Part shown: positions 1 to 64,000 of the stretch, in pieces
Layout of the letters: every line of letters begins with the position of its first letter
Position numbering within the stretch: position 1 is the stretch's first letter
IMG/VR virus record: IMGVR_UViG_3300035498_001541
From: an uncultured virus (IMG/VR IMGVR_UViG_3300035498_001541)
Lineage: Duplodnaviria > Heunggongvirae > Uroviricota > Caudoviricetes
DNA length: 64,000 nt
Reading direction: 5' to 3' (one strand)
The notes under the pieces: model-generated
The model's database searches: none
The model's input: the letters and a program-made list of their open reading frames with translations, nothing else
Told to the model about the DNA's origin: nothing
Translations under genes and position numbers: made by a program

Positions 1-872
1 TCTGAATCAACACAAGCCTGAATAGCAGCACCGACAGTCTGCATACTTCCTGTGCTAATATCATCCATCTTCAGAAGAACCTTGTTGTAAATACTGGTAC
101 AAATATTCTTCTTCAGTTTGTAGAACTCATCACTCGTGTCATAGCTAAACTGATAGTAGCTTCCGGCTGACATAACTTTATCAACGCCCTCTGCTAAATC
201 TACCTCAACCAGACGCTTAGCACCTCTTGCCATTGCATTTGCAACATTACCGAATCCCTGTAACAGAGTCCCGTTAAAGCCAATGGCAAAGAAGAAAATA
301 GACATAATCGTAGGAATACTTACCTTTAAAACATAGGTAGTTAATGTATCATCTTCCTGCAGATTATACATCATCTTCTCCGGATTGTAGTCCGAATATG
401 CCTTGATATCCGGCAACAGAGAAAGTAAAAATCCGACAATGGCATCAAGACCAACACCATAGTTACCCTGGAAAACCTCGCGGCCCATTGCACCGAAGCC
501 AAAGAACTTCTGGCCCCTGCCATGCTGTTTAAGGTCGTATACTCTGTCAAAGATAGCTTCATTACTCTTGTACAGCATTGTCAAAATCAATCTAAATGCC
601 GTCAGTACAAGACCAATCAAGCAAAATGCTGAAATCAAAAAGTTCAGTAATTTACCTAACCAGTTAAATTTAGAGAAAACTTCCCAGCTTCCAGTAAAAG
701 CTGTTGTCTCAAACAAATCCGTAAGTTCTGTACCATCTGCTGCGTGAGTAATCTCAGGAATCACAAAAGCACTCGCAATCAACATAACATACAGCAGTAA
801 GATTACATTGAAACGCTGCAGTACTAAAGGATTGATTTGAAATTCTTTCGCATTTTTCGCTTTAATACCCAT
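1..872 (-). CDS. Multi-pass membrane protein, 3'-partial (absent from the ORF track)
   Basis: Hand translation from ATG 872 (AGGAGG at 881-886): MGIKAKNAKEFQINPLVLQRFNVILLLYVMLIASAFVIPEITHAADG...WLGKLLNFLISAFCLIGLVLT...LLSLLPDIKAYSDY...IPTIMSIFFFAIGFNG. Open to the window edge; signal peptide plus several hydrophobic segments. Confidence 0.85.
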   Translation of the reverse strand, partial: MGIKAKNAKEFQINPLVLQRFNVILLLYVMLIASAFVIPEITHAADGTELTDLFETTAFTGSWEVFSKFNWLGKLLNFLISAFCLIGLVLTAFRLILTMLYKSNEAIFDRVYDLKQHGRGQKFFGFGAMGREVFQGNYGVGLDAIVGFLLSLLPDIKAYSDYNPEKMMYNLQEDDTLTTYVLKVSIPTIMSIFFFAIGFNGTLLQGFGNVANAMARGAKRLVEVDLAEGVDKVMSAGSYYQFSYDTSDEFYKLKKNICTSIYNKVLLKMDDISTGSMQTVGAAIQACVDS

Positions 873-884
873 AATTAATCCCTC

Positions 885-3800
885 CTAATTAAAGTTAATT
901 GCTACCAACATTACTAGCGTGCACATCAACATAATGGCACAAACCCTAGCTAATGGAGGATCATCGTCAAGTGAATAAATACCAAAGGTTAAAAACTTTA
1001 TTAAATCAAAACCACGTTGGGCTGATCTATTAGGTCCGGCTGCTAAAGCTTCTAGCAGAATCCTTAAACCTGCATGGTGAATCGCTAAGTATGCAATCCA
1101 GCTCATCACCACTAAGTAAGCAGCAATACACGTTATCACCATCAAGAACAAACTCTTAAAGTCACCCGCAAGAGCTTTCTGATAGTTTCTAACAAATTTA
1201 TTCTTTGCATTAGTAAAAGCAATAGACGGATTATACCTTGAACTGCTCACACTGATATCTGCGTACTGATCATCCTCATAGCTCAAACTTTCTGTATAGA
1301 ATGATGGTAAATCATCCCCTGTTCCGTAATTTCCAGAAGCAGTCGTACTAGTAAGCGTGTAGATTGTCTTCTCTGAATTGATGGGACGAACCTTCAGCTT
1401 ACCATCCAGTTTCAGCCTAATCGTCGTCATTGCATACCTACCAACTTCCGTTCCGGAAACTTTCTGCTTTGACTTCTTTTTCTTGTACCCGTATGCTTTG
1501 TTGTTCTCAGTATAAATCAATCCATACTTTCTGGTATTCTTCGTATTTCGTAGCGGTCCAACCTGTATACCGCTACTTGAGCCTTTCTTTCCTTTGTCCT
1601 TAATATAATTTGTGAAAGGATAGGCTCGACCATCGCACAGAACCACTAAATCCTTGAACGTGCTCTTTACAACAGACTTAAATCCTTTCTCATCCTTTGC
1701 TTTGTTAGTCCATTTTGCAGCATAGTTCCTAAGACCTTTTCTTGCTCCAATACTTCTAACTGCAACAGATGTAAGCCATTTGTTGCTGGAATCATCCTGC
1801 TTAGAATCACTATCAACAAAGAAACGAATATCGCCAATAGTAATCATATCGCCGGCATTCAACTCACTGAGATTTGTTGTCTGTACATAGTTAGCAATAA
1901 TAGACTCCTGCAAAGACTTCGTAATACTGTATGGATAATAGTTTCCGAAGCAAATAGCAGAAGACTTCTTGTGATGTGACAGCATACAGTCATTATCAGT
2001 TGTTGTACCACTTGATGCACCGGTCGTAGTGCTGTCCTCTGTGTAAACCGTCCATTCATCAACAGACAAATAGAAAACAGGAACACCATAAATTGTCTTC
2101 TTGTCATCAGACGTAGAACTACCAATAGCATTCACACGAAGAGAGCTATCTGGAGCAGACATATTCTGCAACTCTTCTCTTGTTGCCAATTTATTCTTAT
2201 CAGTATTTTTCTTAGAGTATACAGTGTTACTATGCTCCTTATTAGTCTTAGCTCTCAGCTTCAAACCAAAGAAATTCAAAGCTTCGTATAAAGTATTACG
2301 ATTGGTAGGCTTCTTGTTCACAATTTTATTTCTTGCACTAGTATCGTAGTCGTAGATTACAGTATTCTTTCCAACACAGCTAAGATTTCTTAGAGTAAAG
2401 CCATACAGTGTATCCTGATTGCTAAAGTGAAACGCGTAGTTATAGTCAAAATGGTATGGATGAGTCTTTGTCCCCAAGTACTCCTGTGCCCATGCATCCC
2501 AAACATCGCTGTACCCGTAATCAATCTTACTGGTAGTCAGCTGTTTATTCTTGTATGGTACAAACTTTGGATATACAGCTGTACCATCCCCACCTGACCA
2601 CAGCAACTTACCACCATTGTACAGTTCACTCGTTGTGTCTCTTACAATAGGTTTATCATATGGAACAAAAAGCAAATATGTTTGCTCAACAGTCTTCTTT
2701 TTCTTCTTAGTACTAATAGTCTTTGTCCCAACATACAACATCTTGTGATTTGTACCATTAGCATTATAGGTCACAGTAGTAGACCCAGCATTCAAACTAG
2801 CCTGTGAGGTAGTTCTCGTCTTCATCTTAATAAGACTAACTTTGCCTTTGGAATTTAGATTGTATACAACTCTCGTATCAGAGTCTAAATCCCTGTAAAC
2901 TACACCTGAAGCTGTTCTGAAATAGTGCTGGTCAACACTGTTTCCTGCCCAACTTGCATAGAACGTACCATCACCATTGGACTTATCTTTTCCATAGCAG
3001 AAACTAACCGTTCTGTAATCAGTAACCATACTCTGCAAAATTGAAGCTTCTTCTTCTGTTAAATCCATATCTGCAAAAGCCTCAGTCGGACTGAAGAATT
3101 TCTGATACCATGTCTTGATATCATCACCAAAGTACGCTGCCAACAAACTCTCATTGGAACTTGTACCATTGGAATCCCATGTCTGTGCTTTAAGTGGGTC
3201 TGACTTACGATTAAACATTGTGTTAATCCACTTAATATGTGAAGAACTACAACTGCTTGGCATCAGAATACTAATAGACGGAACTAAATACCCAGTGTTC
3301 ACATAGCAAACACCAGTGGTCCCGTAGACATAGTTACACAGCATATTACTTGCCATATAATTGCTATCCCACCAGTTCTCCAAAATCTTACTATTGGTAG
3401 GTCTTGTATACAACTCGGTCTGCAGAGTATTATCTGAATCACCAGTCGTAATGGCATCATACAAATCTGACACGCTCTCAAAATCCTCAACAGCAGGTAT
3501 TGCAAACTTCCAATCTATCACTAAGGTCAGTGTCTTTGTCTTTCCACCTAAAGAGCACTTGAAATCCTTTACAATTGTATTGATACCCTCTGTCACTGAA
3601 TTCACATTGTACATGTACAGAGTTTGTCCCTTACTATAAGTAGAGTCTTCTTCCTCTGACTTACCATCATCTGTACTAACAAGGTCTCCGTTAGCCAACT
3701 TAGCAAACTTCTTTGTCAGAGTGAAATTAGTTACGACTGCTTTACCAAAGTTAGCATCGTATTCAGACCTTACAACTGCTTTGTAATCCGCAACGGTGTC

Positions 3801-6260
3801 AGAGTTAGTAACAATTGCTCCTGTACCCAACTTCTGCTGAAAACTATCCTCTAAAATAGACTGAATAATCTTCATGTTGTAATACACTTCTCCGGACTCA
3901 TCAGTGTCTGTCATCAAGAACTCATCCTTGGTGAGAATTACAGTGTTACCAACTAAAGCGTATCCACTATCCGGCAAAATCACTGCCTGTGCCCCTGTCA
4001 CAGTATTCACAAGTACTTTGTCCTCAATCACTGAAATGTTACTCCATGTCTGCTTCATGGAACTCTGTGATACCATTGTGTATGTCGGGTCAGCTGACCC
4101 TGCTTTCTTTACCTTTGTCACAGCTGTAAGCTTTTTCGTATTAGCATCCACTGGGCACTTAAGATTCTTTTCAACTTTCTTTAAAGCTCCCGCGGCAGAA
4201 CCTGCCTTTACACTAAATACTACTTTGTAGCAAGGAACAGATGAACCATTAAACTTCGTATTTGTCACTTTAATACTCTTGATATCTGAAGGCTTATCTC
4301 CGCCATTCACAATATCAGAAAGCTTAGTAGTTCCGTATTTCCATGCTATACTCTTTGCTAAACGCTTTGTTACCAGATACGATGATGTATCAGCAGCTAA
4401 AGCTATCGGCACATCTATTGCCTGCTTGCTAAAGCTTGCTAAGCTCATCAGACTAAGCTCACCAATACTCACCTGTGCAACAGTTGTAACACTATCACTA
4501 CTTCCGCTCTTCTCTACGCTACCTTCATCCTGCGTAAATCCAGCAGCAACAGAGTATACAGCTAAATCATTAGCTCCGTACCCATTACTCTGCCAGAAGC
4601 TCTCGCCATCCGTCAGAGTAATCTTACTGAAATCATACCGGGCATCCTCATTAGCAACTCTGTAAAGAAGCTGATAAAGCTTTGCATAAGTTACTCTACT
4701 ATCAAGGTCGGAGTATTGGTCTCCGTCCTCAAAGCTCAAAATACCTTTTGAAATCAGAAAGCTCAAAGTCTTCTGTTGCTTTTCTGTGTAGGCTGACAAG
4801 TAGGTAATCCCGTATTTGTAAGTAATGATATCAGCTTCTGTATCAGTAATATCATCCTCTGAAATCCTGAGAACATCCTCAATATATTCTAAAGCTTCAC
4901 CATACGTAATAGACTCTGAATTAAAATACTTTGGATTCCTTGCTGTAATAGTGCCGCCCTTTGTGTACTTAATACTCTGTCCTAAAGCCTGGCTAACATT
5001 AGAATCGCAAAGACCACTCTCATTCCACCAAACTGGAGTAGTTCCCTTGGACAGCTTATTTATTGCTGAAGTGAAAGCCCTACCTGGACTGTCAGTTTCT
5101 CCAAACAAATTACCAGAATCTTCGTTATCACTGCGGAACTCATTCTTGTAAATGATTCCCTTATCTAACAGTGCTTTAAAGTACAGCTCGTATACATTGT
5201 TGCTTACATAGTAGTAATAGTCACCACTAGTAAAATCAGCATTATCTTTTCGCTTTGTTGTATCCCAGTAATCTCTTACAACCTTGTGACCATCAGTAGT
5301 CGTATAATACTTATTCAACTTGGTTATCAGCTTACCATCTTCCCACCAAGTACCGGTTGATTCACTGTACGTATTAGCATTTCTCACTGCAGTCTTGTTA
5401 AACACAATAGGTCTTGACTGAATAGAACCCCAAACAGACTTGTACAGCAACATCAGCAAATCAGATTTCCTAACCTTATCAGAATCAGCAACCACCATAT
5501 TATCATAGTGCATTTCCATAAGCTCTTTGAATTCTTCCATAGAACTCTCAAGCTCATCATGATAATTCTCTGAACTAGTCTTTCCAAGCCTGTAGTCTAA
5601 ATCTGCTGTTATCTCTTTGGTCTCTTCCTCTATCTCACTAAGCTGGTCATCAGTAAGCATCTTAGCTTCTTTCATCAGAGTAATAAGACCACCAGAACCA
5701 GTATCGCTCAAAACTGCATCTACATAATTCTCAAAAGCATTCTCGACTTTGGAAATCTTAGGGCTATCTGTATCAACGCTGTTCAAGCACTTGTTGTACT
5801 TTGTTGTAAACATCTTGTTCCAGCGAAGTTTTACATCCTCGTATCTGGTTGCACTCCACATACCGGTACTACTATCGTATGTCACAACCTCTTTTCTTGA
5901 AAGAATGTTATTGTTAATCAAATAAGACTTAGCAACCGCAACATCGGAGAGCTCACTCTTCTCGCTATCCTCATTTGTGTCTTGATAGCTATTTGTTCCA
6001 TTCACTAAATCTCTTGATGTACTTGTGATAACATACTTGTCAGACTCATCAGCTTCAATCTTACTCAAATAGCTGTATTGCATTAAACTGAGAATATCCT
6101 GCTGACTCTTCTCCGACAGTTTATAATCAATAGCAGTTACAGCATCGTTGATAGAGTGTGCTGCTGAAGTCGTATATCCATAAGTTCCTGCACTAACGCT
6201 TGCAGAATTCTGTAAACCCAGCATTAAAAGTAACGAACCTACTATCAAAGCTTTCTTCAA
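885..6260 (-). CDS. Very large secreted, C-terminally membrane-anchored surface protein with degenerate SLH-like motifs (~1791 aa)
   Basis: Probable TTG start at 6260 after AGGGGGTG (track uses GTG 6269). Signal peptide MKKALIVGSLLLMLGLQNSASVSA. SLH-like segments LISKGILSF...VTYAKLYQLLYRV, LLDKGII, ITYGEALEYI. Two hydrophobic segments at the C-terminus. Confidence 0.8.
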   Translation of the reverse strand: MKKALIVGSLLLMLGLQNSASVSAGTYGYTTSAAHSINDAVTAIDYKLSEKSQQDILSLMQYSYLSKIEADESDKYVITSTSRDLVNGTNSYQDTNEDSEKSELSDVAVAKSYLINNNILSRKEVVTYDSSTGMWSATRYEDVKLRWNKMFTTKYNKCLNSVDTDSPKISKVENAFENYVDAVLSDTGSGGLITLMKEAKMLTDDQLSEIEEETKEITADLDYRLGKTSSENYHDELESSMEEFKELMEMHYDNMVVADSDKVRKSDLLMLLYKSVWGSIQSRPIVFNKTAVRNANTYSESTGTWWEDGKLITKLNKYYTTTDGHKVVRDYWDTTKRKDNADFTSGDYYYYVSNNVYELYFKALLDKGIIYKNEFRSDNEDSGNLFGETDSPGRAFTSAINKLSKGTTPVWWNESGLCDSNVSQALGQSIKYTKGGTITARNPKYFNSESITYGEALEYIEDVLRISEDDITDTEADIITYKYGITYLSAYTEKQQKTLSFLISKGILSFEDGDQYSDLDSRVTYAKLYQLLYRVANEDARYDFSKITLTDGESFWQSNGYGANDLAVYSVAAGFTQDEGSVEKSGSSDSVTTVAQVSIGELSLMSLASFSKQAIDVPIALAADTSSYLVTKRLAKSIAWKYGTTKLSDIVNGGDKPSDIKSIKVTNTKFNGSSVPCYKVVFSVKAGSAAGALKKVEKNLKCPVDANTKKLTAVTKVKKAGSADPTYTMVSQSSMKQTWSNISVIEDKVLVNTVTGAQAVILPDSGYALVGNTVILTKDEFLMTDTDESGEVYYNMKIIQSILEDSFQQKLGTGAIVTNSDTVADYKAVVRSEYDANFGKAVVTNFTLTKKFAKLANGDLVSTDDGKSEEEDSTYSKGQTLYMYNVNSVTEGINTIVKDFKCSLGGKTKTLTLVIDWKFAIPAVEDFESVSDLYDAITTGDSDNTLQTELYTRPTNSKILENWWDSNYMASNMLCNYVYGTTGVCYVNTGYLVPSISILMPSSCSSSHIKWINTMFNRKSDPLKAQTWDSNGTSSNESLLAAYFGDDIKTWYQKFFSPTEAFADMDLTEEEASILQSMVTDYRTVSFCYGKDKSNGDGTFYASWAGNSVDQHYFRTASGVVYRDLDSDTRVVYNLNSKGKVSLIKMKTRTTSQASLNAGSTTVTYNANGTNHKMLYVGTKTISTKKKKKTVEQTYLLFVPYDKPIVRDTTSELYNGGKLLWSGGDGTAVYPKFVPYKNKQLTTSKIDYGYSDVWDAWAQEYLGTKTHPYHFDYNYAFHFSNQDTLYGFTLRNLSCVGKNTVIYDYDTSARNKIVNKKPTNRNTLYEALNFFGLKLRAKTNKEHSNTVYSKKNTDKNKLATREELQNMSAPDSSLRVNAIGSSTSDDKKTIYGVPVFYLSVDEWTVYTEDSTTTGASSGTTTDNDCMLSHHKKSSAICFGNYYPYSITKSLQESIIANYVQTTNLSELNAGDMITIGDIRFFVDSDSKQDDSSNKWLTSVAVRSIGARKGLRNYAAKWTNKAKDEKGFKSVVKSTFKDLVVLCDGRAYPFTNYIKDKGKKGSSSGIQVGPLRNTKNTRKYGLIYTENNKAYGYKKKKSKQKVSGTEVGRYAMTTIRLKLDGKLKVRPINSEKTIYTLTSTTASGNYGTGDDLPSFYTESLSYEDDQYADISVSSSRYNPSIAFTNAKNKFVRNYQKALAGDFKSLFLMVITCIAAYLVVMSWIAYLAIHHAGLRILLEALAAGPNRSAQRGFDLIKFLTFGIYSLDDDPPLARVCAIMLMCTLVMLVAINFN

Positions 6261-6265
6261 AATAG

Positions 6266-6703
6266 TCACCCCCTAACAACTTTCTTGGAGACACGAATTA
6301 GAAATGGCATATCTTTAAAAGCCTTTCGTACATCTGTGTTCTCTGGAACCAACTCTATTGAGTAAGGTAAAAAGTCTTTGTGTTTAAGTACCCTTTTTAA
6401 GGAATACTTGTATGAAGCATCAACTGAAATAACAACGCTCTTACACACCTCGTCCTTACCACTCATAGAAGTATTCCGGATAAGCTCTTTGTAAATCTGT
6501 GCAAGAAGAAGGTCTTTCAATTTCTCATCCCTCTGCATCAAACGAATATTATCCTCTTCCAAGCGTCTATTAAGACCTGTCTTGTAGAAATCAGTGTTAT
6601 GCCACATAGTGAGAAAGCCAGCCTGTATCTTGCCTAAAGGTTTGAGCTTTCTCAAATTCACTGATGCTTCAACGTCTAATTCTCTTCGTATTTTTACTCT
6701 CAT
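6266..6703 (-). CDS. Hypothetical protein (145 aa)
   Basis: ORF coupled to both neighbours; no motif recognised. Confidence 0.75.
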   Translation of the reverse strand: MRVKIRRELDVEASVNLRKLKPLGKIQAGFLTMWHNTDFYKTGLNRRLEEDNIRLMQRDEKLKDLLLAQIYKELIRNTSMSGKDEVCKSVVISVDASYKYSLKRVLKHKDFLPYSIELVPENTDVRKAFKDMPFLIRVSKKVVRG

Positions 6704-14617: not shown

Positions 14618-14630
14618 TTTTCCTTCCTCC

Positions 14631-28813: not shown

Positions 28814-28832
28814 GTCATACCCCTTAACAAAC

Positions 28833-32676: not shown

Positions 32677-32689
32677 ACCATTCACCTCA

Positions 32690-38212: not shown

Positions 38213-38217
38213 TACAC

Positions 38218-46093: not shown

Positions 46094-46104
46094 TGTTAAT
46101 CCTC

Positions 46105-46851: not shown

Positions 46852-46863
46852 AGCCCTCACCTC

Positions 46864-49216: not shown

Positions 49217-49227
49217 ATCAAATCCTC

Positions 49228-52505: not shown

Positions 52506-52510
52506 AATAG

Positions 52511-52918: not shown

Positions 52919-52927
52919 AGATTCCTC

Positions 52928-55964: not shown

Positions 55965-56052
55965 GGGATTTCACTCACTTTCTTACTTTTTTATAATAAA
56001 CATACATTGTATGCAAGGTGTTCACTTTCAACAATTTTTTAGACAAACTGTA

Positions 56053-59000
56053 CTATTCCAACAAACTTTTCATTTTCTCGGACCTAACATACATCTGAAT
56101 CTCATCCAGCATATCATCTGGGTCTCTACTTGGGTCAACACCATCCTCAGCAAGCATACTTTCCACTTCTGTATTCAACTCTTCAGCATAGTCAAAAACC
56201 TCATCTTTCTGATAGACAGAATCTGTGGTATAAATAAACCGATTGGTGTATGACTCCAAAAGCTTAGTTACACTTGCAAGAGCTCCTGTAACATAGTTTC
56301 CGTTTAGAATCCTGTTAAAATCCTGCATAGAATTAAAATCCACTGCAAGATTCTGCTGACCAGCAATATCTGAATCAATTACGTTAAGCAGTTCATCCGA
56401 AACATTTAAAAGTCTCTTGGAAAAATCAAGAGAATATCTCGAAATCAACTCTGATACAATCTTACTGATAAACATTGTTGGTGCAAAAGACTTGTAGGTG
56501 ATACTGCTAATATTGCTACCTAAAACAACATTCAGTACATCCTCGGAAAATTTCTCAAACTCCTTACTGAAATCGTATGAGTTATGTACATTAAACCCAT
56601 TAACTTCAGAAGCACTTTCACGCATCTCACTGAATCTAGTCATAAATGCTTCTGGTGTCTCGCCTTCCAGACGCTTTGGAACCCACCTGCCAAAAACGAA
56701 GTGCCTTACTCTATCATCAATAGAAGCAACCTCATCCTTGCTAAATTCTGAAAGGAAATATTCACCCTCTGACTTACTTACAACATCCCTTGTAGCATCC
56801 CTAATCCTGCAAATTGACAATCGCAACTCTGTAGTAAAATGGTCGGTCACATAGCTATCCAAAGCCTTTGAACCTCCCTCTCCAGAAAAGCTACTATCAA
56901 TAGTCACTGCAAGTTTCTCAATCTCTTTACAGAATCTATAGAAGTTTTGCCCCTTTACATAAAGAAGGGCCTCCCTAAGAGTAGCGTGCTCCTCAATCAC
57001 AGGATAAGAGAATGTCAGCACGTTATTGGTAAACATAGGATTGTTACCAACGTATTTCTCAAGCATCTTGCTAATCTTCTTACGTGACTCGGCTAAACCG
57101 GAAGAATTTGTCAACTGACTCTTGAGAGTAGTGACATTCATAATCTTCATTGGTTCCCAATAGCTGTAAAAATCACCGGCAAGGTTATTTACAATCATCC
57201 TATCTGCAATACTGTTAAAGAGATTTAGTACCTCTTCTGACGGAATATACTTATCAAAGTCACTCAGCTTGTACGAAGATAAGTTAATCATTGGGCAGTA
57301 CCCTAAAGACTCCTCACCTTCACGCAGCTTATCAATCCAGTATTCATACTCAGAAAATCTATCATCTAATCTCTGTTGCAATATCTCCGGATTCTCTTTT
57401 AGAAGCTTAATCACTTCATCATCCTGTACTGGCTTGCCACCAAGAGCTTCAGAAGCCATGGAACTAAGCATACTGAGTTTTTCAGCACTAACAGCACCAA
57501 TGCCCTTACCTACATCCATCTCAGATACAAATGCAATATTATCTTGGAGCAACCAAATATCCGAGTAATCCAACTTTGCACGCAAGAACGGATTCTCCTG
57601 AAAATAGAACAGCAATGAGAACAATGCCTGGTTATGCAAGCTATCATAGTCCTTACTCAGAACACTCGCAAAATATCTTGCAACCTCAGAATAGCTTATC
57701 TTTCTATAAGGGCTTGCAAGGTACTCAGCTACAGCATCATCCTCTGCTAAACTCTCCTCACTAAGCTCCTCACCCAGTTCCTTACCGGACTGCTTACCAT
57801 CACTAACAATTGGTCTCCTCGTAGTAACGCTAAGGCACTTTAGCCGCTTATAGAACTCATCGCCAGCTCGTTTCATTTCCAAGTCATCCACAAAGTATAC
57901 TTCCTTATCTTCAGCAATGCTAGCTACTGCCACATCACCTATTGCCTTCTGAATAAAAACATCAGGCACTGCCTTCTCAATAATAGAGATTGGTGGCTCA
58001 ATCTTCAGATAAGCTGCTCCTTTACAAATCAAAGGAATTACCTGTGTAGCATCATCAATCCCCTTTGAATCGCTCTTAATAGCAGTGGTAAACATATTCT
58101 TGTAATCATCCTTTGTGAATACTAAATCTGTACCGCACTCACATGAATACACACGTGGCAGTTGAAAAATATTCTTGTTCACACCGCTACGGCTATCACG
58201 AGTTTCTGTTGATACTCTAAGAATGGCGAATGGTACCTTTTCCATTATCACCTGCTTACCGCACACTGGGCACTTAGTTACATACCCATCACTTGTCTGC
58301 AATACCTGCCTAATTACTCTTGTCTTTTTGGCATTCGCATTTAAAATCATAGAATTGCTGATTGCAACTTCATCCTTCATAATAAAATTGGCAACCTGCT
58401 TTCTACCACTCTCTTGATGCTGTAACATCATGCTAGATACATTGTCAGAATCCAGCAACATAGGAACAATAGTCTCCAAAGCATTGTATAAATCCACAGT
58501 ACTCCAGTCACCAATCCTGTCCAAATATTCGACTCTTTTCCTAATAGCATTGAATACTGAATCAACACTAACTTCTCCATGCTGAGACTTTTGTTCATTG
58601 ATAATATTCTCAACAATAATGGAAAGCTTACTGTAATTATCATCTACAAAAACATTGGATTTCAAATCACTTGATACAGCAGCAATCTTATTGCTATCTT
58701 CAAGTGTTGCTGAAGACAATGCAAGCAGCTCCTTAGCACTCCTGCACTCTTCTGCTGCATACATTACAGCATCAGCCACTACCTGCTGCTCATGCTCTTC
58801 ATCCCTTAGCTTCTTTTCTCGCTTCACCAAAAACTCAACATTGCTAAAGTCTAAATCATCGGTATCTTCATACCCGGCTTCTTTGAGGAAACTCTGCATT
58901 TCATTGTATTCCTCTAAATCCTCATCTTCATCAAGGTCTGATACTTCATCCGCAAATACACCAAATTCAAGGTCTTCTGGTGATAAACTCACAGCAAAAG

Positions 59001-59253
59001 AATTATCGTCTACCTGTTGGGACTTGATAATTTTACCAACATCAACTTTGTCAGTTGTATCTAAAAGGTCGTCATCGCCGAAGTCGTCTCCGAAGTCTCC
59101 GCTACTTCCTGCTGACTCCGCAAAGTCGTCAAGGTCGTCGAAGTCTTCGTCGAAGTCCCCGGATTCAAAGTCTCCTCCATTGAGTCCTGCACTATTTGCC
59201 AAAACATCTCCGGTAGACCCTCCTGTCCCCTCAGTTCTCTCAACTCGTTCCAT
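56053..59253 (-). CDS. Large hypothetical protein with an acidic N-terminus and a Zn ribbon (1066 aa)
   Basis: AGAAAGGA SD; CPVCG...CECG; DDF-rich N-terminal region. Confidence 0.85.
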   Translation of the reverse strand: MERVERTEGTGGSTGDVLANSAGLNGGDFESGDFDEDFDDLDDFAESAGSSGDFGDDFGDDDLLDTTDKVDVGKIIKSQQVDDNSFAVSLSPEDLEFGVFADEVSDLDEDEDLEEYNEMQSFLKEAGYEDTDDLDFSNVEFLVKREKKLRDEEHEQQVVADAVMYAAEECRSAKELLALSSATLEDSNKIAAVSSDLKSNVFVDDNYSKLSIIVENIINEQKSQHGEVSVDSVFNAIRKRVEYLDRIGDWSTVDLYNALETIVPMLLDSDNVSSMMLQHQESGRKQVANFIMKDEVAISNSMILNANAKKTRVIRQVLQTSDGYVTKCPVCGKQVIMEKVPFAILRVSTETRDSRSGVNKNIFQLPRVYSCECGTDLVFTKDDYKNMFTTAIKSDSKGIDDATQVIPLICKGAAYLKIEPPISIIEKAVPDVFIQKAIGDVAVASIAEDKEVYFVDDLEMKRAGDEFYKRLKCLSVTTRRPIVSDGKQSGKELGEELSEESLAEDDAVAEYLASPYRKISYSEVARYFASVLSKDYDSLHNQALFSLLFYFQENPFLRAKLDYSDIWLLQDNIAFVSEMDVGKGIGAVSAEKLSMLSSMASEALGGKPVQDDEVIKLLKENPEILQQRLDDRFSEYEYWIDKLREGEESLGYCPMINLSSYKLSDFDKYIPSEEVLNLFNSIADRMIVNNLAGDFYSYWEPMKIMNVTTLKSQLTNSSGLAESRKKISKMLEKYVGNNPMFTNNVLTFSYPVIEEHATLREALLYVKGQNFYRFCKEIEKLAVTIDSSFSGEGGSKALDSYVTDHFTTELRLSICRIRDATRDVVSKSEGEYFLSEFSKDEVASIDDRVRHFVFGRWVPKRLEGETPEAFMTRFSEMRESASEVNGFNVHNSYDFSKEFEKFSEDVLNVVLGSNISSITYKSFAPTMFISKIVSELISRYSLDFSKRLLNVSDELLNVIDSDIAGQQNLAVDFNSMQDFNRILNGNYVTGALASVTKLLESYTNRFIYTTDSVYQKDEVFDYAEELNTEVESMLAEDGVDPSRDPDDMLDEIQMYVRSEKMKSLLE

Positions 59254-60257
59254 GAATTCACCATCCTTTCTAAAAAGCTGTAAAATGTATCTGTATGCAT
59301 CAGCACTGGATGTGTACCAAACTCATCAGTTATCACATCTCGTCGCTGTCCTACAACAAACTTTAAATCTCCTGACTCTCTCGAATACAAAATAAAAGGA
59401 TTACTCTCCTTAGCACTCGTCATCTTAATTTCCAACAAAGATGCCCCATTACTATCAATGCAGAGCTCATTGCACTTCTTCAGATACTTCTCCTTAGTTG
59501 TACTCTGACCATTCAGTGAAATACTACCTGTCATACACACATTGAACTTCACCATACCTTCACACCGGATAGACTTGCCAAAAAGCGAGTATGCAACAGC
59601 TAAATCTATCACACTATGCCTGAGATTATAAGCTACAGACGGTGCATAGAATCCCTTACTTGCACAAAAGGCTGATACACTACCTGCCTTCTTAATAGCA
59701 TCGTATACCTCTCCAAAAGACTTAAATCCTTCAAAGAGAACTTCTGCATCCTTGCTTAAATCTGGAATAGCCAAATTGCTAGCTAAATGTGAAAATGTAA
59801 TGCTCTCTTTCTTAATACTCTGGCAGGCAACAAAGAAATCACTTGCAATGCTAAGGTCAGAGATAGAAGGAGGGTATTCTTCCCAAGGAATATTTACAAC
59901 CTCGACATAAGACTTTGTTTCAAAAAGCCCTTTCTCTCCTGCATCCTTTAGCCGCTTATCCTTAGCAAGCAAAGCCCCGTATATCTTACTACACGAGGCT
60001 TCTTTCAAGCCCTTCACACCAAACCTTGAAAGCATCTCAGCTATGGCAAAACCCATCTTTACGCGACACCGCGGGTCACAGCACATAATCTGAGTACGAG
60101 AACTCTTAATGATATTCTCACTGCCACACTCACAATAATCCGGAAAATAATCATGGAAACCCTCTGGGATAAGCCCAAGCTCCTTGGCTCCACTCACAGA
60201 AACCCACCCAGAGAATGCTTTCTCTTTATCATCCTCCATCAATTCAGAAAATGTCAT
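59061..60257 (-). CDS. NAD-dependent DNA ligase C-terminal module only (Zn finger, HhH, BRCT-like)
   Basis: PDYCECGS...CCDPRC, SRFGVKGL, LASNLAIPDL...LFEGFKSF, VCMTGSI; no adenylation (KxDG) or OB domain. Confidence 0.78.
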   Translation of the reverse strand: MTFSELMEDDKEKAFSGWVSVSGAKELGLIPEGFHDYFPDYCECGSENIIKSSRTQIMCCDPRCRVKMGFAIAEMLSRFGVKGLKEASCSKIYGALLAKDKRLKDAGEKGLFETKSYVEVVNIPWEEYPPSISDLSIASDFFVACQSIKKESITFSHLASNLAIPDLSKDAEVLFEGFKSFGEVYDAIKKAGSVSAFCASKGFYAPSVAYNLRHSVIDLAVAYSLFGKSIRCEGMVKFNVCMTGSISLNGQSTTKEKYLKKCNELCIDSNGASLLEIKMTSAKESNPFILYSRESGDLKFVVGQRRDVITDEFGTHPVLMHTDTFYSFLERMVNSWNELRELRGQEGLPEMFWQIVQDSMEETLNPGTSTKTSTTLTTLRSQQEVAETSETTSAMTTF

Positions 60258-60269
60258 AATGACCTCCAA

Positions 60270-61088: not shown

Positions 61089-61094
61089 CTTTTA

Positions 61095-64000
61095 TCAACC
61101 TCCATTAGTTACATCTGCAACCATGTTCTGAAGCTTCCCTAAATTAACATTCTTGCTAATTGAATTAGCATACACAAAATGCCCATTTGGTTCACAGAAC
61201 AAAATACGTGTATCAGTTCCAGGATACTTCTCTAAAGTTCTTGAGATAATCCTTTGTTGCTTAATTGTATCAACATCAATCAGAACAAGATTCTGAATAG
61301 TACAAACTCTATCCCTTTCCTCTGACACAAGATACTCCACAAACTTATCCAGCACACCAATATCGTAGCTATCAGAAACCTTTTCCCATCGGTCAAAGAC
61401 ACCAGGGCACTTCACAATTACCCTGCATCCCGACGGAACAACATCATTTCTGAGAAACTCCTTAACACTGTCAATCTGGCTATTGTTCTTTACAGAAACA
61501 ACAATCTGACCATTCAGCTTTTTAACATGGTGATACTTTTCCTTTACCACTGTCATAGCAGTAACATCATCTGCATCCTTGTTATCATAGTTAAATACAA
61601 GTTCGTCCTCTTCAAACTTCTCTACAGACTCATCACGACACTCCTCGTCATAGACCAGCTGAGCACTGTCCTCATCAAAACTCCAGTTCTCTTCTTCCTC
61701 CCCGGAGTCTTTATCAAACAGCTCGTCGTAATCAACAAAGTCTTCATCGAAATCATCAGACTCCTGCTCTTCTTCTACTGCTTTAGTTACTACATATGTC
61801 TCCTCACCCAACTTAAAAGACACCGGCTTATCAAACTTCGACAATGCCCATGTCTCCAATCTCTTTATCCACTTTAAGTCCTCGAACAAACTTTCCTCAT
61901 AGCTATTGCTTGGCTTGAAGTCTGGTTCACCGTTCATCTCGTAATCATTCACGTATGCACGAACCGTATAATTAGTAAACTCAACAAGCAACTCATCCAA
62001 ATCTAAAGGCTTCTCCGGAAAATCTGGTTGTAGTGTCTTAATTACCTCACCAATTCTGTCCTCAACATACTGAGCCCTTAATGGCTTAATCAAATCATCC
62101 CAAGGATGCTCAAATACTGTCTTCTCTCTAAACTCTCCGGCATCATACCTCTTTATCATTCTCTCCACAAAGTACACTGGAGCCTCTCTTGCATCATCCT
62201 TGCACTCGCCCCAAGAATCTCCCATATTGATACCCACAAAATACTTAGTGTGACCCTTCATTGTAATCATACAAGCTTTCTTTACAATCTTGTAAATAAG
62301 CATAGGGTTTACGTCATTCTTAACACTGCAAAGTAGCTCATCATGAATCAACATATACCACTTTACTTTGTCTTGAATCCCATATTTTTCACACTCTTGA
62401 TAAAAGCGTATCAGGATTATTCTAAAGATCTCTGCGGCAGTTGCCTGTATTGGATAGTTACCTGCCTTACGTCTAATACTAGCTTCCTCCGGCGTGTATT
62501 CACCCTGCGCCCTTCTTGCAGCACCGGCTGGTGACAAATCCACACCCTCAAGACTAAAGGTACGATAAAAACCAAGAATATTCTCACACTTGCTGATAGG
62601 CGAAGGAATCTTCTTACCCTCTGCATCAAGCAAGTACTCCCCATTCTCATCCTTCTTGTAGGCATCCATAAACTCTCTCAAGTCATCACTAATCTTCCAC
62701 TCTGTAAGAGCTTCAGCACGTGACTTCTCAAGCAAGTCAATAATAGGTTTGTTCTGTTGACGCCACTTATGCAAGGTAACTCTAGTCTCCACCATATGCT
62801 CCTTGCTCCTATCCTTAAACATCGTCTCACACATACTGGCATCACCCAAACCGTAAGGAACGCCGAAAGACACACTCTTTGCTTTCTTTCTCTCTTTCTT
62901 AGAAATACGGTATGCAGGCTTACCCTCAACCATAGAAGCTGTCTCTGTATGGTAGTCATTCTCTGGATTGCACATCTTCTTAATCATTGGTTCAAACTTT
63001 GCTAAAGAAAGCATGATACGGTATTCAATCTGAGCCATATCAAAATCCAACAAATAGTCATCATCCGAATAGGGCTTCACAACTGCTTTCAAGCTTCCTT
63101 TCATTGTCTGACCCGGATTAGAGATTCTTCGAGTTTCGATACGAGCCATATTATAGCCCTTAAAAATCTTGCCCTCCAGATTGTTCTCTGCCATTGGTTT
63201 GTAGTACCCTGTGTACTCTTTATTCAGCTCTGTGTACTTCTGAATTATCAGAGCCAGCGGGTATTTAAGACTGTTAAACTGTTTGGCACTAATCAATACC
63301 AAACTATCAGCCTTCTTACCCTTGCCCTCAGCTCTCAGCTTTGCAACCTCGGCATGAGTAGCACCATACACCAAAATATCAGCCTGCAACTTTCTTGGTG
63401 CTATGTCACCCTCTTTCAGCTCATCCCTCAGCAACTTAGAAATAGCGTACTTGTCAATCTTAGGCAACCGTTTCTTTCCCTCAGTGTAAGCCTTTATTGG
63501 GTATTTCATAATATCGTACAGTACAGTTCTCAGCTGAGCCGGTTTAAACTCAAACTCATATCTAGCATTTGGGTCAGGAACTACTGCATCAACTGCAGCT
63601 TTGTATTCTTCCTCACTCTTAAACTTGCCAGACTCCCAAGCCAGCTTCAAAACCTTTAGCTCATTAGAGTATTGAACAAAAACACCAACATAGGAATACA
63701 TAGCATTTTTCAGAATCTCAATATTCTGATAGTTCTGCTCTGCCAACTCCTGCACTTTCTCCTGCACTGTATTCATTCCCCAGTACTCAGACTGATACAG
63801 AATATTATCCATTGGAACATCCTGTCTCTGATACCAGTAATACATCTTGTCAGACATCAAAGACCTCAGCTTATAGAAGCAAGCCAAAGTATAGTCTGCA
63901 TCAGCGCAACCGTATATCTCTGCAACTTCCCTGTCAGCTAAATATCGGTACTTGTCCTCATTACCCTTTCCTAACACATCTTCCAACTCTGGAGTCTCGT
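61095..64000 (-). CDS. polA: Large family-A DNA polymerase with 3'-5' exonuclease and a long C-terminal extension, 5'-partial
   Basis: ExoIII YGCADAD, motif A DFDMAQIEYR, motif B RKKAKSVSFGVPYG, NYPIQATAA, motif C LIHDELL; frame open to the right edge. Confidence 0.93.
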   Translation of the reverse strand, partial: ETPELEDVLGKGNEDKYRYLADREVAEIYGCADADYTLACFYKLRSLMSDKMYYWYQRQDVPMDNILYQSEYWGMNTVQEKVQELAEQNYQNIEILKNAMYSYVGVFVQYSNELKVLKLAWESGKFKSEEEYKAAVDAVVPDPNARYEFEFKPAQLRTVLYDIMKYPIKAYTEGKKRLPKIDKYAISKLLRDELKEGDIAPRKLQADILVYGATHAEVAKLRAEGKGKKADSLVLISAKQFNSLKYPLALIIQKYTELNKEYTGYYKPMAENNLEGKIFKGYNMARIETRRISNPGQTMKGSLKAVVKPYSDDDYLLDFDMAQIEYRIMLSLAKFEPMIKKMCNPENDYHTETASMVEGKPAYRISKKERKKAKSVSFGVPYGLGDASMCETMFKDRSKEHMVETRVTLHKWRQQNKPIIDLLEKSRAEALTEWKISDDLREFMDAYKKDENGEYLLDAEGKKIPSPISKCENILGFYRTFSLEGVDLSPAGAARRAQGEYTPEEASIRRKAGNYPIQATAAEIFRIILIRFYQECEKYGIQDKVKWYMLIHDELLCSVKNDVNPMLIYKIVKKACMITMKGHTKYFVGINMGDSWGECKDDAREAPVYFVERMIKRYDAGEFREKTVFEHPWDDLIKPLRAQYVEDRIGEVIKTLQPDFPEKPLDLDELLVEFTNYTVRAYVNDYEMNGEPDFKPSNSYEESLFEDLKWIKRLETWALSKFDKPVSFKLGEETYVVTKAVEEEQESDDFDEDFVDYDELFDKDSGEEEENWSFDEDSAQLVYDEECRDESVEKFEEDELVFNYDNKDADDVTAMTVVKEKYHHVKKLNGQIVVSVKNNSQIDSVKEFLRNDVVPSGCRVIVKCPGVFDRWEKVSDSYDIGVLDKFVEYLVSEERDRVCTIQNLVLIDVDTIKQQRIISRTLEKYPGTDTRILFCEPNGHFVYANSISKNVNLGKLQNMVADVTNGG

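What the first reader, a model, noticed from the sequence alone, without database searches (positions are those of the whole stretch)
1..64000. Core of a giant Firmicutes extrachromosomal element with its own divergent replication, repair, transcription and envelope machinery
Seen: ~57 co-oriented genes, about half unrecognisable, with deeply diverged homologs of dnaX, holA, clamp, dnaG, dnaQ, two polA, recJ, uvrD, sbcCD, ligA-C and rpoA, plus pilus-like and T7SS-like genes. No virion, integrase or metabolic gene. Known: chromosomal copies of these genes are well conserved and sit in fixed operons, and jumbo phage RNAPs generally lack alpha. Inference: this is a megaplasmid-like or phage-like replicon family of Clostridia that may be poorly described.
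Basis: partly seen in the sequence, partly recalled or inferred. Interest (0 to 1): 0.85.

Follow-up and report, generated by a model that had tools for sequence, protein, structure and literature searches.

The report
Giant integrative element with own RNA polymerase
This window is the conserved core of a very large mobile DNA island of gut Lachnospiraceae that carries its own DNA-copying and RNA-making machinery plus a probable cell-to-cell transfer apparatus, but no recognisable virus-particle genes, and no description of it was found.

Summary
The observation largely holds. The window has 54 co-oriented, tightly packed genes. Deeply diverged dnaX, rpoA (N-terminal domain only), 5'-3' exonuclease, PilB-type ATPase, recJ, pcrA/uvrD, sbcD, dnaG-Toprim, FtsK-type ATPase, dnaQ, amidase, a LigA C-terminal half and a giant PolA are confirmed. 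"Clamp" and "holA" could not be verified. The second polA and sbcC are weak.

Relatives occur in Lachnospiraceae genomes and in 51 metagenome loci with strict synteny. Just upstream of the window's PolA, relatives carry a fused beta-beta' RNA polymerase (33 of 33 loci), plus sigma, GreA-like, DnaB-like, Hsp70, TubZ, sortase and adhesins.

The element is not seen as a free replicon. In a Wujia MAG it is a 180.4 kb insertion in tRNA-Met, with a tyrosine integrase and 24 bp att repeats, and the same site is empty in related genomes. In a second MAG it abuts a serine recombinase and a truncated spore-protein gene.

No capsid, portal or terminase was found, and there are no relatives in IMG/VR. A probable VirB4 ATPase with membrane proteins and wall hydrolases points to conjugation, but no relaxase was found.

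Best reading: a giant, self-transcribing, self-replicating ICE-like element. I found no description of it in five literature searches.

The parts
3..872 (-). Polytopic membrane protein (3 predicted TM segments). 3'-truncated by the window edge; orthologs are 379-402 aa. It lies in the gene string that leads to the VirB4-like ATPase in relatives.
   Evidence: TM scan. Orthologs at 44-48% identity. No family hit.
885..6269 (-). 1,794 aa protein with an N-terminal hydrophobic segment and two C-terminal TM segments. Probably a large surface or channel-associated protein of the transfer module.
   Evidence: Orthologs of 1,437-1,745 aa at 28-35% identity. No family hit.
6706..7914 (-). Clamp-loader ATPase (DnaX-like).
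   Evidence: Pfam DNA_pol3_delta2 E 2.9e-15, phrog_5846 E 3.6e-25, TIGR02397 E 2.7e-40. Walker A at residue 39.
9799..10422 (-). RNA polymerase alpha-subunit N-terminal (assembly) domain homolog. No C-terminal domain.
   Evidence: NCBIfam rpoA E 1.5e-7. Family profile vs PDB: 24 of 24 hits are RNAP alpha, best E 1.5e-7.
11002..12036 (-). 5'-3' exonuclease / flap endonuclease.
   Evidence: Pfam 5_3_exonuc_N E 4.7e-16.
15745..17331 (-). PilB/GspE-family secretion ATPase.
   Evidence: Pfam T2SSE E 6.8e-28; TIGR02533 E 1.7e-26. 43-52% identical orthologs.
18083..19597 (-). RecJ-like ssDNA exonuclease.
   Evidence: phrog_2484 E 2.3e-53; TIGR00644 E 3e-39.
20542..22938 (-). UvrD/PcrA-family helicase.
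   Evidence: Pfam UvrD-helicase E 7.7e-38; TIGR01073 E 1e-47.
26590..28834 (-). SbcD-like phosphoesterase (26590-27708), followed by a P-loop protein with a weak Rad50/SMC/OLD-like N-terminus (27623-28834).
   Evidence: Metallophos E 6.5e-8; sbcD_Staph E 1.2e-4; Rad50 E 5.4e-3; Walker A at residue 37. PDB profile search found nothing significant.
28884..30308 (-). Highly conserved 474 aa acidic protein of unknown function. There is a weak lead to phage gp32-type ssDNA-binding proteins. It is the only part of window 14001-34000 covered by contigs of an RNA library.
   Evidence: Orthologs at 35-43% identity. Atlas score 0.85, lead only. Three RNA-library contigs, >=99% identical, at 28995-30064.
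30458..31210 (-). DnaG-type primase catalytic (Toprim) part. The zinc-ribbon part is a separate gene elsewhere in relatives.
   Evidence: Toprim_2 E 5.2e-10; TIGR01391 E 5.4e-17. Zn_ribbon_DnaG gene at c1 171446-172069.
31960..32736 (-). NERD-domain nuclease-related protein.
   Evidence: Pfam NERD E 3.9e-7.
33940..35706 (-). Diverged family-A-polymerase-like protein, possibly inactive.
   Evidence: Pfam DNA_pol_A E 4.8e-5 (below cut-off). hhalign vs the PolA family E 0.0032 over 183 columns. No HDE motif.
36047..38221 (-). FtsK/SpoIIIE-type ATPase with a single ATPase domain and no predicted TM segment. Candidate DNA translocase or coupling protein.
   Evidence: Pfam FtsK_SpoIIIE E 2.3e-18; phrog_1358 E 3.5e-27; TIGR03924 E 2.3e-19. 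TM scan.
42688..45126 (-). Coiled-coil SbcC/SMC-like protein (weak), followed by a DnaQ-like 3'-5' exonuclease (44503-45126).
   Evidence: phrog_77 E 1.2e-4; RNase_T E 5e-7; phrog_192 E 2.8e-17.
45095..59253 (-). Block of 14 genes, all unknown except an Amidase_3 wall hydrolase (49228-50649). Includes small membrane proteins, very acidic proteins, and a conserved 1,066 aa protein with an invariant CxxC...CxC motif (56053-59253).
   Evidence: Conserved next to PolA in 31-33 of 34 metagenomic loci for 56053-59253, 55068-55964 and 53523-54170.
59061..60269 (-). C-terminal half of an NAD-dependent DNA ligase (Zn-finger, HhH, BRCT). This is one half of a split LigA.
   Evidence: hhalign of the 36-sequence family vs host LigA: 95.7% probability, E 9.6e-9, LigA columns 393-662. 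The adenylation half is a separate gene in relatives.
61095..63998 (-). Giant family A DNA polymerase. The window holds the C-terminal 967 aa; the family is ~1,300-1,450 aa, and some members carry a 3'-5' exonuclease domain.
   Evidence: Pfam DNA_pol_A E 5.6e-32; phrog_17 E 9.4e-43. 238 relatives scored E<=0.001; the 120 best listed are 43-65% identical, apart from one 99% cluster that is probably the window's own protein.

Best explanation
The window is the conserved core of a family of very large (about 150-180 kb) integrative mobile elements of gut Lachnospiraceae.

Shown:
- The element inserts site-specifically into the chromosome. In one host it sits in tRNA-Met with a tyrosine integrase and 24 bp att repeats. 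In another it lies next to a large serine recombinase.
- It carries a bacterial-type RNA polymerase set: an alpha-NTD in the window, and a fused beta-beta', a sigma factor and a GreA-like protein just outside it in relatives.
- It carries a near-complete replisome and repair set: a giant PolA, clamp loader, DnaB-like helicase, split DnaG, split LigA, FEN, RecJ, PcrA/UvrD, DnaQ-like exonuclease and SbcD.
- It carries a TubZ partition GTPase, sortase and very large adhesins.
- It has no recognisable virion gene.

Inferred:
- It moves between cells by conjugation. The apparatus would be a diverged Gram-positive type IV secretion system: a probable VirB4 ATPase, polytopic membrane proteins including the window's first two genes, NlpC/P60 and amidase wall hydrolases, and FtsK-type and PilB-type ATPases.
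- After excision it would replicate and segregate on its own.
- It would transcribe its ~150 co-oriented genes with its own polymerase and sigma factor, so that it depends little on the host's machinery.
For: Synteny. 41 of 54 and 40 of 54 window proteins have co-linear homologs at 21-57% identity in two Lachnospiraceae contigs. In 51 metagenome loci, RpoBC lies upstream of PolA in 33 of 33 loci with full flanks, and w52 and w53 lie downstream in 34 of 34.

Integration.
- The first ~143 kb of the G002 contig is ordinary chromosome, followed by a serine recombinase and then the element.
- In G001 there is a tyrosine integrase, with an exact 24 bp repeat at 65,793 and 246,153. The right copy is the 3' end of an intact tRNA-Met.
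- In the relatives G018 and G011 the left flank runs directly into a single att core, and alignments stop exactly at the core; G013 also lacks the insert (1 mismatch in the core region, left flank placed only).

Extra copies. Host PolA, rpoB/C, LigA, DnaN and HolA lie elsewhere in the same genomes.

RNA polymerase. The fused beta-beta' is intact, with open frames of 2,751-2,878 aa in 3 genomes. The alpha-NTD is supported, and sigma and GreA_N.

Transfer apparatus.
- The 659 aa protein scores 0.98-0.99 by Atlas features, with TM 0.56-0.72 to TraC/VirB4 clusters.
- It is conserved in 3 of 4 genomes.
- Its neighbours are a 1,472 aa protein with 5 TM segments, a 2-TM protein and a membrane-anchored NlpC/P60.

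No virion genes. Pfam and PHROGs found no capsid, portal or terminase in 54 window proteins, 78 element proteins of c1 and 78 arm proteins of the delimited G001 element. Two IMG/VR scans found no relatives. VirB4 has no match in phage records.
Against: - No relaxase or oriT was found with Pfam, PHROGs or NCBIfam.
- No VirD4-type coupling protein was found. The FtsK-type ATPase lacks the TM segments usual for TcpA-type coupling proteins and lies ~35 kb from the VirB4.
- The VirB4 call is not backed by Pfam at E<=1e-3. A local hhalign test barely separates it from other P-loop ATPases: E 7e-4 to 4e-3 against references, 2e-3 to 0.3 against controls.
- About two thirds of the genes are unassigned, so virion genes too diverged for sequence profiles cannot be excluded.
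- Several accessory genes have a phage flavour: dNMP kinase, thymidylate synthase, an Apyc1-like hydrolase, a TubZ/PhuZ-like tubulin and an internal tRNA.
- The window's own contig ends were not seen, so its own state (integrated or free) is unknown.
- Both integration junctions come from MAG contigs. In the cultured isolate the element is split over scaffolds and no junction was found.
Confidence: 0.6

Rival explanations
1. It is a giant temperate phage (prophage). Its capsid, portal and terminase would be too diverged to be recognised by sequence profiles. Its RNA polymerase and replisome would serve a lytic cycle, as in jumbo phages and SPbeta-like phages.
For: - The gene content has a phage flavour: its own multisubunit RNAP, a PolA replisome, TubZ/PhuZ-like tubulin (phrog_4733), dNMP kinase, thymidylate synthase, an Apyc1-like hydrolase and an internal tRNA-Gln.
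- An amidase sits next to small membrane proteins in the window, which could be a lysis cassette.
- It integrates in a tRNA gene or through a serine recombinase at a spore gene, as SPbeta and skin do (recalled).
- The nearest Atlas clusters are labelled mostly 'Viruses'.
- 36 of 54 window genes are unassigned.
Against: - No terminase, portal, capsid or tail family was found in 54 + 78 + 78 proteins by PHROGs or Pfam. The only 'tail' or 'structural' hits are an NlpC/P60 domain, an MBL domain and Ig domains.
- The large terminase is usually found even in very diverged phages (general knowledge).
- No member of the family is in IMG/VR or in 50,697 phage records.
- A probable VirB4, sortase and LPXTG-type adhesins are typical of conjugative elements.
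Confidence: 0.2
2. It is, mainly an extrachromosomal megaplasmid-like replicon. It would be kept by its own replisome and TubZ, and the integrated copies would be an occasional or resting state.
For: - A full replisome and a TubZ partition protein make sense only for an autonomous replicon.
- The nearest (very distant) relatives of both PolA and VirB4 in the plasmid collection are circular 215 kb and ~350 kb Bacillus megaplasmids.
- In the cultured isolate the element lies on scaffolds made wholly of element genes, with no junction found.
- The window's own contig context is unknown.
Against: - Two independent assemblies show junctions with chromosomal genes and an integrase at the element's end.
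- One insertion is delimited to the nucleotide, with empty sites in relatives.
- At least 20 of the 51 metagenome loci lie on contigs of 250-670 kb, larger than the element.
- No contig examined showed terminal overlap (two contigs).
- There are no Rep_3 or ParAB genes.
Confidence: 0.12
3. It is a non-transmissible chromosomal island, or a domesticated remnant of an old element. It would be inherited vertically, with its diverged machinery serving a host function such as a developmental programme like sporulation.
For: - In G002 the element abuts a truncated alpha/beta-type spore protein gene, with a large serine recombinase at the junction. This recalls sporulation-excised intervening elements.
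- No relaxase was found.
- Gene order is very conserved at low identity.
Against: - The same site is empty in related genomes, so presence varies.
- Different hosts carry it at different sites with different integrases.
- The genes are intact, with no stops in the 2,751-2,878 aa RNAP frames.
- It occurs in several genera: Wujia, Lachnoclostridium and unnamed Lachnospiraceae.
Confidence: 0.08

Closest known systems
Integrative and conjugative elements of Firmicutes (Tn916 / ICEBs1 type, recalled)
   Same: Site-specific integration with a tyrosine or serine recombinase, in one case in a tRNA gene with att repeats. A probable VirB4 ATPase sits next to a membrane-anchored NlpC/P60 hydrolase and polytopic membrane proteins. 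There is an FtsK-family ATPase, and a PcrA/UvrD-type helicase is involved.
   Different: It is roughly ten times larger than the recalled sizes of those ICEs. It brings its own multisubunit RNA polymerase and a near-complete replisome instead of using the host's. No relaxase was found. There is no resistance or obvious metabolic cargo in the window.
Hodor conjugative megaplasmids of gut Bacillota (preprint PMC12934698; abstract, sections 5 and 7 and passages read)
   Same: Giant (>200 kb) capsid-less elements of gut Firmicutes that were overlooked or filed with huge phages. They have VirB4, several sortases and giant surface proteins.
   Different: As described, Hodors are circular plasmids with Rep_3, ParA/ParB/ParM, VirD4, a MOBH-like relaxase and SecY/E/G. 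None of these was found here. 'RNA polymerase' does not occur in that text. This element is integrated. I could not make a sequence comparison because no Hodor sequence was on hand.
Inocle giant extrachromosomal elements of oral Streptococcus (PMC12340149; passages read)
   Same: A giant Firmicutes element with VirB4, sortase A, LPXTG proteins, signal peptidase and wall enzymes. Most genes are unknown.
   Different: Inocles are reported as extrachromosomal, with VirD4 and a Pol III alpha. 'RNA polymerase' and 'integrase' do not occur in the text. This element uses PolA, has an RNAP and is integrated.
Jumbo-phage multisubunit RNA polymerases (PBS2/AR9, phiKZ type, recalled) and SPbeta-like giant prophages (recalled)
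   Same: A mobile element that encodes its own beta/beta'-type RNAP and replication genes. SPbeta-like phages also integrate with a large serine recombinase in a sporulation-related gene.
   Different: Jumbo-phage RNAPs are split beta/beta' pieces without alpha (recalled). Here beta and beta' are fused in one 2,750-2,880 aa protein and are accompanied by an alpha-NTD homolog, a sigma-70-type factor and a GreA-like protein. No virion genes were found. The best phage matches to the RNAP are ~24-32% identical.
Bacillus megaplasmids of 215 kb (B. velezensis / amyloliquefaciens) and ~350 kb (B. thuringiensis), e.g. NZ_CP076292.1, NZ_CP045024.1
   Same: They give the best plasmid matches for the PolA and 21 of the 22 matches for the VirB4-like ATPase. 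They have long runs of co-oriented hypothetical genes and are typed 'non-mobilizable' by MOB-suite.
   Different: Identity is only 22-28%. The family-specific proteins w24 and w51 have no match there. None of these plasmids was among the 15 listed RNAP matches. They are circular plasmids.

Membership tests
Integrative and conjugative element (ICE) | Site-specific integration: an integrase at one end, flanking att repeats, and an empty site in related genomes | tested here: met
   In relative G001 there is a tyrosine integrase, an exact 24 bp repeat at 65,793 and 246,153, an intact tRNA-Met at attR, and empty sites in G018 and G011 at nucleotide level, with G013 also lacking the insert. The window itself holds no end.
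Integrative and conjugative element (ICE) | VirB4-family ATPase of a type IV secretion system | tested here: inconclusive
   Atlas features 0.98-0.99 and TM 0.56-0.72 to TraC/VirB4 clusters. No Pfam hit at E<=1e-3. hhalign E 7e-4 to 4e-3 vs references against 2e-3 to 0.3 vs controls.
Integrative and conjugative element (ICE) | Relaxase and oriT | tested here: not met
   No relaxase family at E<=1e-3 among the window's 54 proteins (Pfam, PHROGs; NCBIfam at E<=0.01). None among c1 element proteins (Pfam at E<=1e-5 and <=1e-3; PHROGs at <=1e-4). None in the G001 arms (Pfam at <=1e-6, PHROGs at <=1e-4). Genes that span a locus boundary in c1 were not scanned: 15 contig-wide, of which four element genes have no scanned counterpart.
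Integrative and conjugative element (ICE) | Coupling protein (VirD4 or TcpA/FtsK type, membrane-anchored) | tested here: inconclusive
   An FtsK_SpoIIIE ATPase is present (E 2.3e-18) but has no predicted TM segment. No VirD4 family hit.
Integrative and conjugative element (ICE) | Transfer between cells | not testable with these tools
   Needs mating assays.
Tailed-phage prophage (Caudoviricetes) | Large terminase, portal and HK97-fold major capsid protein | tested here: not met
   None found by Pfam or PHROGs in 54 + 78 + 78 proteins. No relatives in IMG/VR.
Hodor megaplasmids | Rep_3 initiator, ParA/ParB, VirD4, MOBH-like relaxase, SecY/E/G module, circular >200 kb plasmid | tested here: not met
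   None of these families was found in the window or the c1 element proteins. The element is integrated.
Bacterial-type multisubunit RNA polymerase | alpha, beta, beta' and sigma subunits | tested here: met
   The alpha-NTD is in the window. In relatives, a fused beta-beta' carries 9 Rpb1/Rpb2 Pfam domains, is intact in 3 genomes and lies upstream of PolA in 33 of 33 loci. I did not look for omega. The alpha C-terminal domain is absent.
NAD-dependent DNA ligase LigA | Adenylation, OB, Zn-finger, HhH and BRCT domains in one chain | tested here: not met
   The gene is split. Zn-finger/HhH/BRCT is at window 59061-60269. The adenylation part (model positions 10-315) is a separate gene beyond the RNAP in relatives.
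Sporulation-gene intervening elements (skin / SPbeta type, recalled) | Large serine recombinase at the edge of an element that splits a sporulation gene | tested here: inconclusive
   In G002 an alpha/beta SASP gene matches PF00269 positions 1-52 of 59 and runs into the recombinase gene. The missing tail was not found. G001 uses tRNA-Met instead.

The most novel reading that the evidence does not exclude
This would be an undescribed class of capsid-less giant mobile element. It is integrative and probably conjugative, and it carries a complete bacterial-type transcription apparatus (alpha-NTD, a single-chain beta-beta', sigma, Gre factor) together with a PolA-based replisome. That gives it virus-like autonomy from the host's core machinery without being a virus. 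It is widespread in human-gut Lachnospiraceae and missed by both virus and plasmid catalogues. It may be distantly related to unexplained Bacillus megaplasmids.
Probability: 0.5. Interest if true: 0.88.

Novelty: new variant of a known kind. Interest (0 to 1): 0.8.

Why it matters
Mobile elements other than viruses are generally thought to borrow the host's RNA polymerase and replisome. If this reading holds, a 180 kb integrative element that is common in gut Lachnospiraceae brings a full bacterial-type RNAP and a replisome of its own.

That would blur the line between conjugative elements and jumbo phages. It would offer a new, naturally fused beta-beta' polymerase and a giant PolA for biochemistry. 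It would also show a blind spot in current virus and plasmid detection pipelines.

One carrier is a cultured isolate, so excision, transfer, particle formation and polymerase specificity can all be tested directly.

Tried and rejected
Searches that found nothing
- Megablast of window 20000-44000 against phages and plasmids: no match.
- A single-protein IMG/VR scan and a profile IMG/VR scan with PolA: no relatives.
- Earlier-findings look-ups by place, sequence and words: nothing.
- tblastn of w24 and w51 against plasmids: no match. Kinship with the Bacillus megaplasmids therefore rests on PolA and VirB4 only.

Profile searches against PDB sequences
- Families w40, w24, w51, w23, w41 and w20: nothing significant.
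- The same search for w52 also failed. A profile-profile comparison with host LigA then succeeded.

Other profile tests
- hhalign of 38 unassigned window families against host DnaN and HolA: nothing credible. The SSB references were fetched but never compared.
- hhalign of the VirB4-like family against six host ICE ATPases: not clearly better than controls.

Boundaries
- The empty-site test for G002 failed because its relatives are too diverged.
- Direct repeats of >=13 bp at the G002 ends: the longest shared words were 13 bp, none by a junction.
- The missing SASP tail was not found in the rest of c1.
- The att test in the isolate: the tRNA-Met 3' end occurs once.
- Terminal overlap or inverted repeats on two contigs: none.

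Other
- A promoter consensus from 14 intergenic regions: too few sequences.
- The first local hhalign script timed out.
- The RNA-library run covers only 3 of 30 bins of window 14001-34000. The uncovered parts say nothing.
- Hodor and Inocle were considered as the family and rejected on the gene sets described in those papers. I could not compare sequences.
- Chance PDB hits (E 0.05-0.9) mean nothing.

Full report
**1. What is in the window**

The window holds 54 non-overlapping ORFs of 91-1,794 aa, all on the minus strand. Only 1,625 bp lie in the 14 intergenic gaps of 30 bp or more. GC is 0.385-0.420, and the coding strand is G-rich in every 4 kb bin (skew -0.20 to -0.34). There are no tRNAs and no Rfam family. 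Intergenic gaps show GGAGG-type ribosome sites and hairpin-plus-T-run terminators. No whole genome is held for the window.

**2.

I ran Pfam, PHROGs and NCBIfam on all 54 proteins.

Confirmed:
- a DnaX-like clamp loader
- a 5'-3' exonuclease
- a PilB/GspE ATPase
- RecJ
- PcrA/UvrD
- an SbcD-like phosphoesterase
- the Toprim part of DnaG
- a NERD protein
- an FtsK/EssC-type ATPase
- a DnaQ-like exonuclease
- an Amidase_3 hydrolase
- a family A polymerase, cut by the window edge

Every NCBIfam score is far below its curated cut-off. For example, dnaX scores 139 bits against 250 and rpoA scores 31 against 228 or more, so 'deeply diverged' is accurate.

Other calls:
- **rpoA (9799-10422).** Weak on its own. 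A four-sequence family profile hits only RNAP alpha chains in the PDB (24 of 24, best E 1.5e-7) and covers only the N-terminal assembly domain.
- **ligA-C (59061-60269).** No family hit and no PDB hit. A 36-sequence family profile aligns to the Zn-finger/HhH/BRCT part of the hosts' LigA at 95.7% probability, E 9.6e-9.
- **Second polA (33940-35706).** Three weak, concordant signals and no motif C.
- **sbcC.** Weak.
- **Clamp and holA.** Not verified.
- **'Pilus-like' and 'T7SS-like'.** Each rests on one ATPase.

In all, 36 of 54 genes remain unassigned.

**3. Relatives and synteny**

The PolA belongs to a large unnamed family. 238 proteins scored E<=0.001; the 120 best listed are mostly ~1,300-1,450 aa and 43-65% identical, apart from one 99% cluster that is probably the window's own protein. 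They sit on contigs of up to 333 kb.

There are no relatives in IMG/VR. Matches in the phage and plasmid records are at most 29% identical.

Among species-representative genomes, the PolA occurs in a Wujia MAG, an uncultured Lachnospiraceae MAG, a cultured Lachnospiraceae isolate and a Lachnoclostridium MAG. Each of these also has an ordinary PolA elsewhere.

I rebuilt three contigs. 41 of 54 and 40 of 54 window proteins have co-linear homologs at 21-57% identity.

In 51 metagenome loci (some record titles say human gut), the neighbourhood of PolA is conserved:
- The RNAP lies upstream in 33 of 33 loci with a full flank.
- w53 and w52 lie downstream in 34 of 34.
- w50 and w48 lie downstream in 33 of 34.
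- w51 lies downstream in 31 of 34.

**4. What lies around the window in relatives**

Upstream of PolA is a single 2,751-2,878 aa protein with nine Rpb2 and Rpb1 domains in the order beta then beta'. It is intact in three genomes and distinct from the host rpoB/rpoC.

The same element also encodes the following:
- a sigma-70-type factor and a GreA_N protein
- a DnaB-like helicase
- the DnaG zinc ribbon, as a separate gene
- Hsp70
- an SNF2 helicase
- a RuvC-like resolvase
- the adenylation half of LigA
- TubZ
- signal peptidase and sortase
- SpaA and TQ-ester adhesins of 1,568-2,409 aa
- NlpC/P60
- an Apyc1-like hydrolase

So the ligase and the primase are both split. The weak alpha call in the window is also backed by a full RNAP set next door.

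**5. Integrated, not free**

*G002.* The first ~143 kb of the 310 kb contig is plain chromosome: flagella, mutSL, mreBCD, minCD, L21, obg and the his operon. A large serine recombinase sits at 143,087-144,769, and element genes follow.

*G001.* Chromosomal genes (butyrate pathway, mreB, folA/thyA, ispF) run to ~62 kb. A tyrosine integrase sits at 65,881-67,143. An exact 24 bp repeat lies at 65,793 and 246,153. The right copy is the 3' end of an intact tRNA-Met, followed by a tRNA cluster.

*Empty sites.* In the relatives G018 and G011 the left flank and the tRNA-Met flank are contiguous with a single core, and alignments stop exactly at the core. G013 also lacks the insert; its core region has one mismatch and its left flank was placed only by the genome search.

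The G001 element is therefore a 180.4 kb site-specific insertion. Many metagenomic contigs that carry the family are 250-670 kb, which agrees with integration.

*Still open.* The far end in G002 could not be found, and neither could any junction in the isolate. The window's own ends are unknown.

**6. Phage or conjugative element?**

I found no terminase, portal or capsid family in the window (54 proteins), in 78 other element proteins of G002, or in 78 proteins of the two arms of the delimited G001 element. The few 'tail' or 'structural' hits are NlpC/P60, MBL or Ig domains.

For conjugation:
- A conserved 659 aa protein next to the NlpC/P60 hydrolase is a probable VirB4/TraC ATPase. Atlas features score 0.98-0.99, all ten best family hits agree, and TM to TraC clusters is 0.56-0.72. 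It is present in 3 of 4 genomes.
- Its gene string contains a 1,472 aa protein with five TM segments, a two-TM protein, and the orthologs of the window's first two genes: a polytopic membrane protein and a 1,745-1,794 aa anchored protein.
- Its only matches in the plasmid collection are 22 records, 21 of them Bacillus megaplasmids, which include those that gave the best PolA hits. It has no match among phages.

Against conjugation:
- No relaxase and no VirD4 were found.
- The FtsK-type ATPase has no TM segment.
- My independent hhalign test of the VirB4 call was inconclusive.
- Some accessory genes (dNMP kinase, thymidylate synthase, an internal tRNA-Gln) have a phage flavour.
- Fold searches could not be run.

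**7. How it most likely works**

*Shown:* site-specific integration by exchangeable integrases, a complete extra transcription and replication gene set, and co-oriented genes with terminators between them.

*Inferred:* the element excises to a circle and is copied by its own PolA-based replisome. The helpers would be DnaB-like helicase, split primase, clamp loader, FEN, split ligase, RecJ, PcrA, SbcD and DnaQ. TubZ would segregate it. Its own alpha/beta-beta'/sigma polymerase would read its ~150 genes. It would pass to new cells through a diverged Gram-positive type IV secretion system, aided by sortase-anchored adhesins and wall hydrolases. The FtsK-type ATPase would act as a candidate DNA pump.

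I put this at 0.6. The rivals are a cryptic giant prophage (0.2), a mainly extrachromosomal life (0.12) and a non-mobile island (0.08).

**8. Comparison with what is known**

I made five literature searches. None turned up a description of an integrative or conjugative element with a multisubunit RNAP.
- **Hodor megaplasmids** (PMC12934698; abstract, sections 5 and 7 and passages read) share size, VirB4, sortases and giant surface proteins. They are defined by Rep_3, ParAB, VirD4, MOBH and SecYEG, none of which was found here.
- **Inocles** (PMC12340149; passages read) share VirB4, sortase, LPXTG proteins and signal peptidase. They are extrachromosomal Streptococcus elements with Pol III alpha.

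Supplements of both papers were not consulted, and they may list genes not named in the text. Jumbo-phage RNAPs lack alpha and are split (recalled).

I file the element as a new variant of the giant conjugative and integrative elements of Firmicutes.

**9. Expression**

One gut metatranscriptome run holds three short contigs (>=99% identical). They lie only on the conserved unknown gene at 28884-30308. This shows that the same element occurs in a gut sample and hints that this gene is transcribed. It shows nothing more.

Noticed in passing
L012:2998-3153 (G002 contig C1 142,998-143,153, + strand): An alpha/beta-type small acid-soluble spore protein gene matches the SASP model only to position 52 of 59. 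Its frame then runs ~110 nt into the 3' end of the convergent large serine recombinase gene at the element's edge. An intact paralog elsewhere in the genome has 10 more residues after that point. This looks like a sporulation gene interrupted by the element.
   Followed up: partly
Plasmid records NZ_CP076292.1, NZ_CP071971.1 (215 kb) and NZ_CP045024.1 and kin (~350 kb); L040: These Bacillus megaplasmids, typed non-mobilizable, give the best PolA matches in the plasmid collection and 21 of the 22 matches for the VirB4-like ATPase (22-28% identity). The stretch I inspected is a long run of co-oriented hypothetical genes. They may be free-replicating distant cousins.
   Followed up: partly
window 59061-60269 with c1 271,732-272,976; window 30458-31210 with c1 171,446-172,069: Two replication enzymes are split into separately encoded halves that lie far apart. 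LigA is split into an adenylation part and a Zn-finger/HhH/BRCT part. DnaG is split into a zinc ribbon and a Toprim part.
   Followed up: partly
L038:10975-11047 (G001 element); L115:8743-8818 and 12531-12606 (isolate scaffold C37): There are tRNA genes inside or next to the element's variable arm: tRNA-Gln in G001, and tRNA-Met and tRNA-Pro on the isolate's scaffold. The 64 kb core window, the G002 contig and the isolate's 103 kb scaffold have none.
   Followed up: no
L030:9954-10865 (G001) and L012:14666-15676 (G002): A metallo-beta-lactamase-fold protein with weak similarity to the anti-Pycsar protein Apyc1 (below the Pfam cut-off) is conserved near the integrase end of the element in both genomes. 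It may be a counter-defence gene.
   Followed up: no
window 35707-36046 and 52338-52510: Two of the longer 'intergenic' gaps appear to hold small unannotated ORFs. One encodes a hydrophobic peptide and the other a Gly/Ser-rich peptide.
   Followed up: no
window 59061-59253: The ORF calls for the 1,066 aa protein and the LigA-C gene overlap by 193 nt. The start of the 1,066 aa protein is probably further downstream than the longest ORF suggests.
   Followed up: no
window 41963-42606: Two small (110 and 91 aa) acidic proteins lie just upstream of the FtsK/EssC-type ATPase region. They have the size of WXG100 substrates but no WXG motif and no family hit.
   Followed up: partly
G002 contig C1 290,000-310,254: Beyond the element's adhesin genes there is a low-GC stretch (0.347) with a D-Ala-D-Ala ligase-like gene, a tyrosine integrase, GmrSD-type restriction genes and DUF4116 repeat proteins. 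These are probably other islands stacked at the same place.
   Followed up: no
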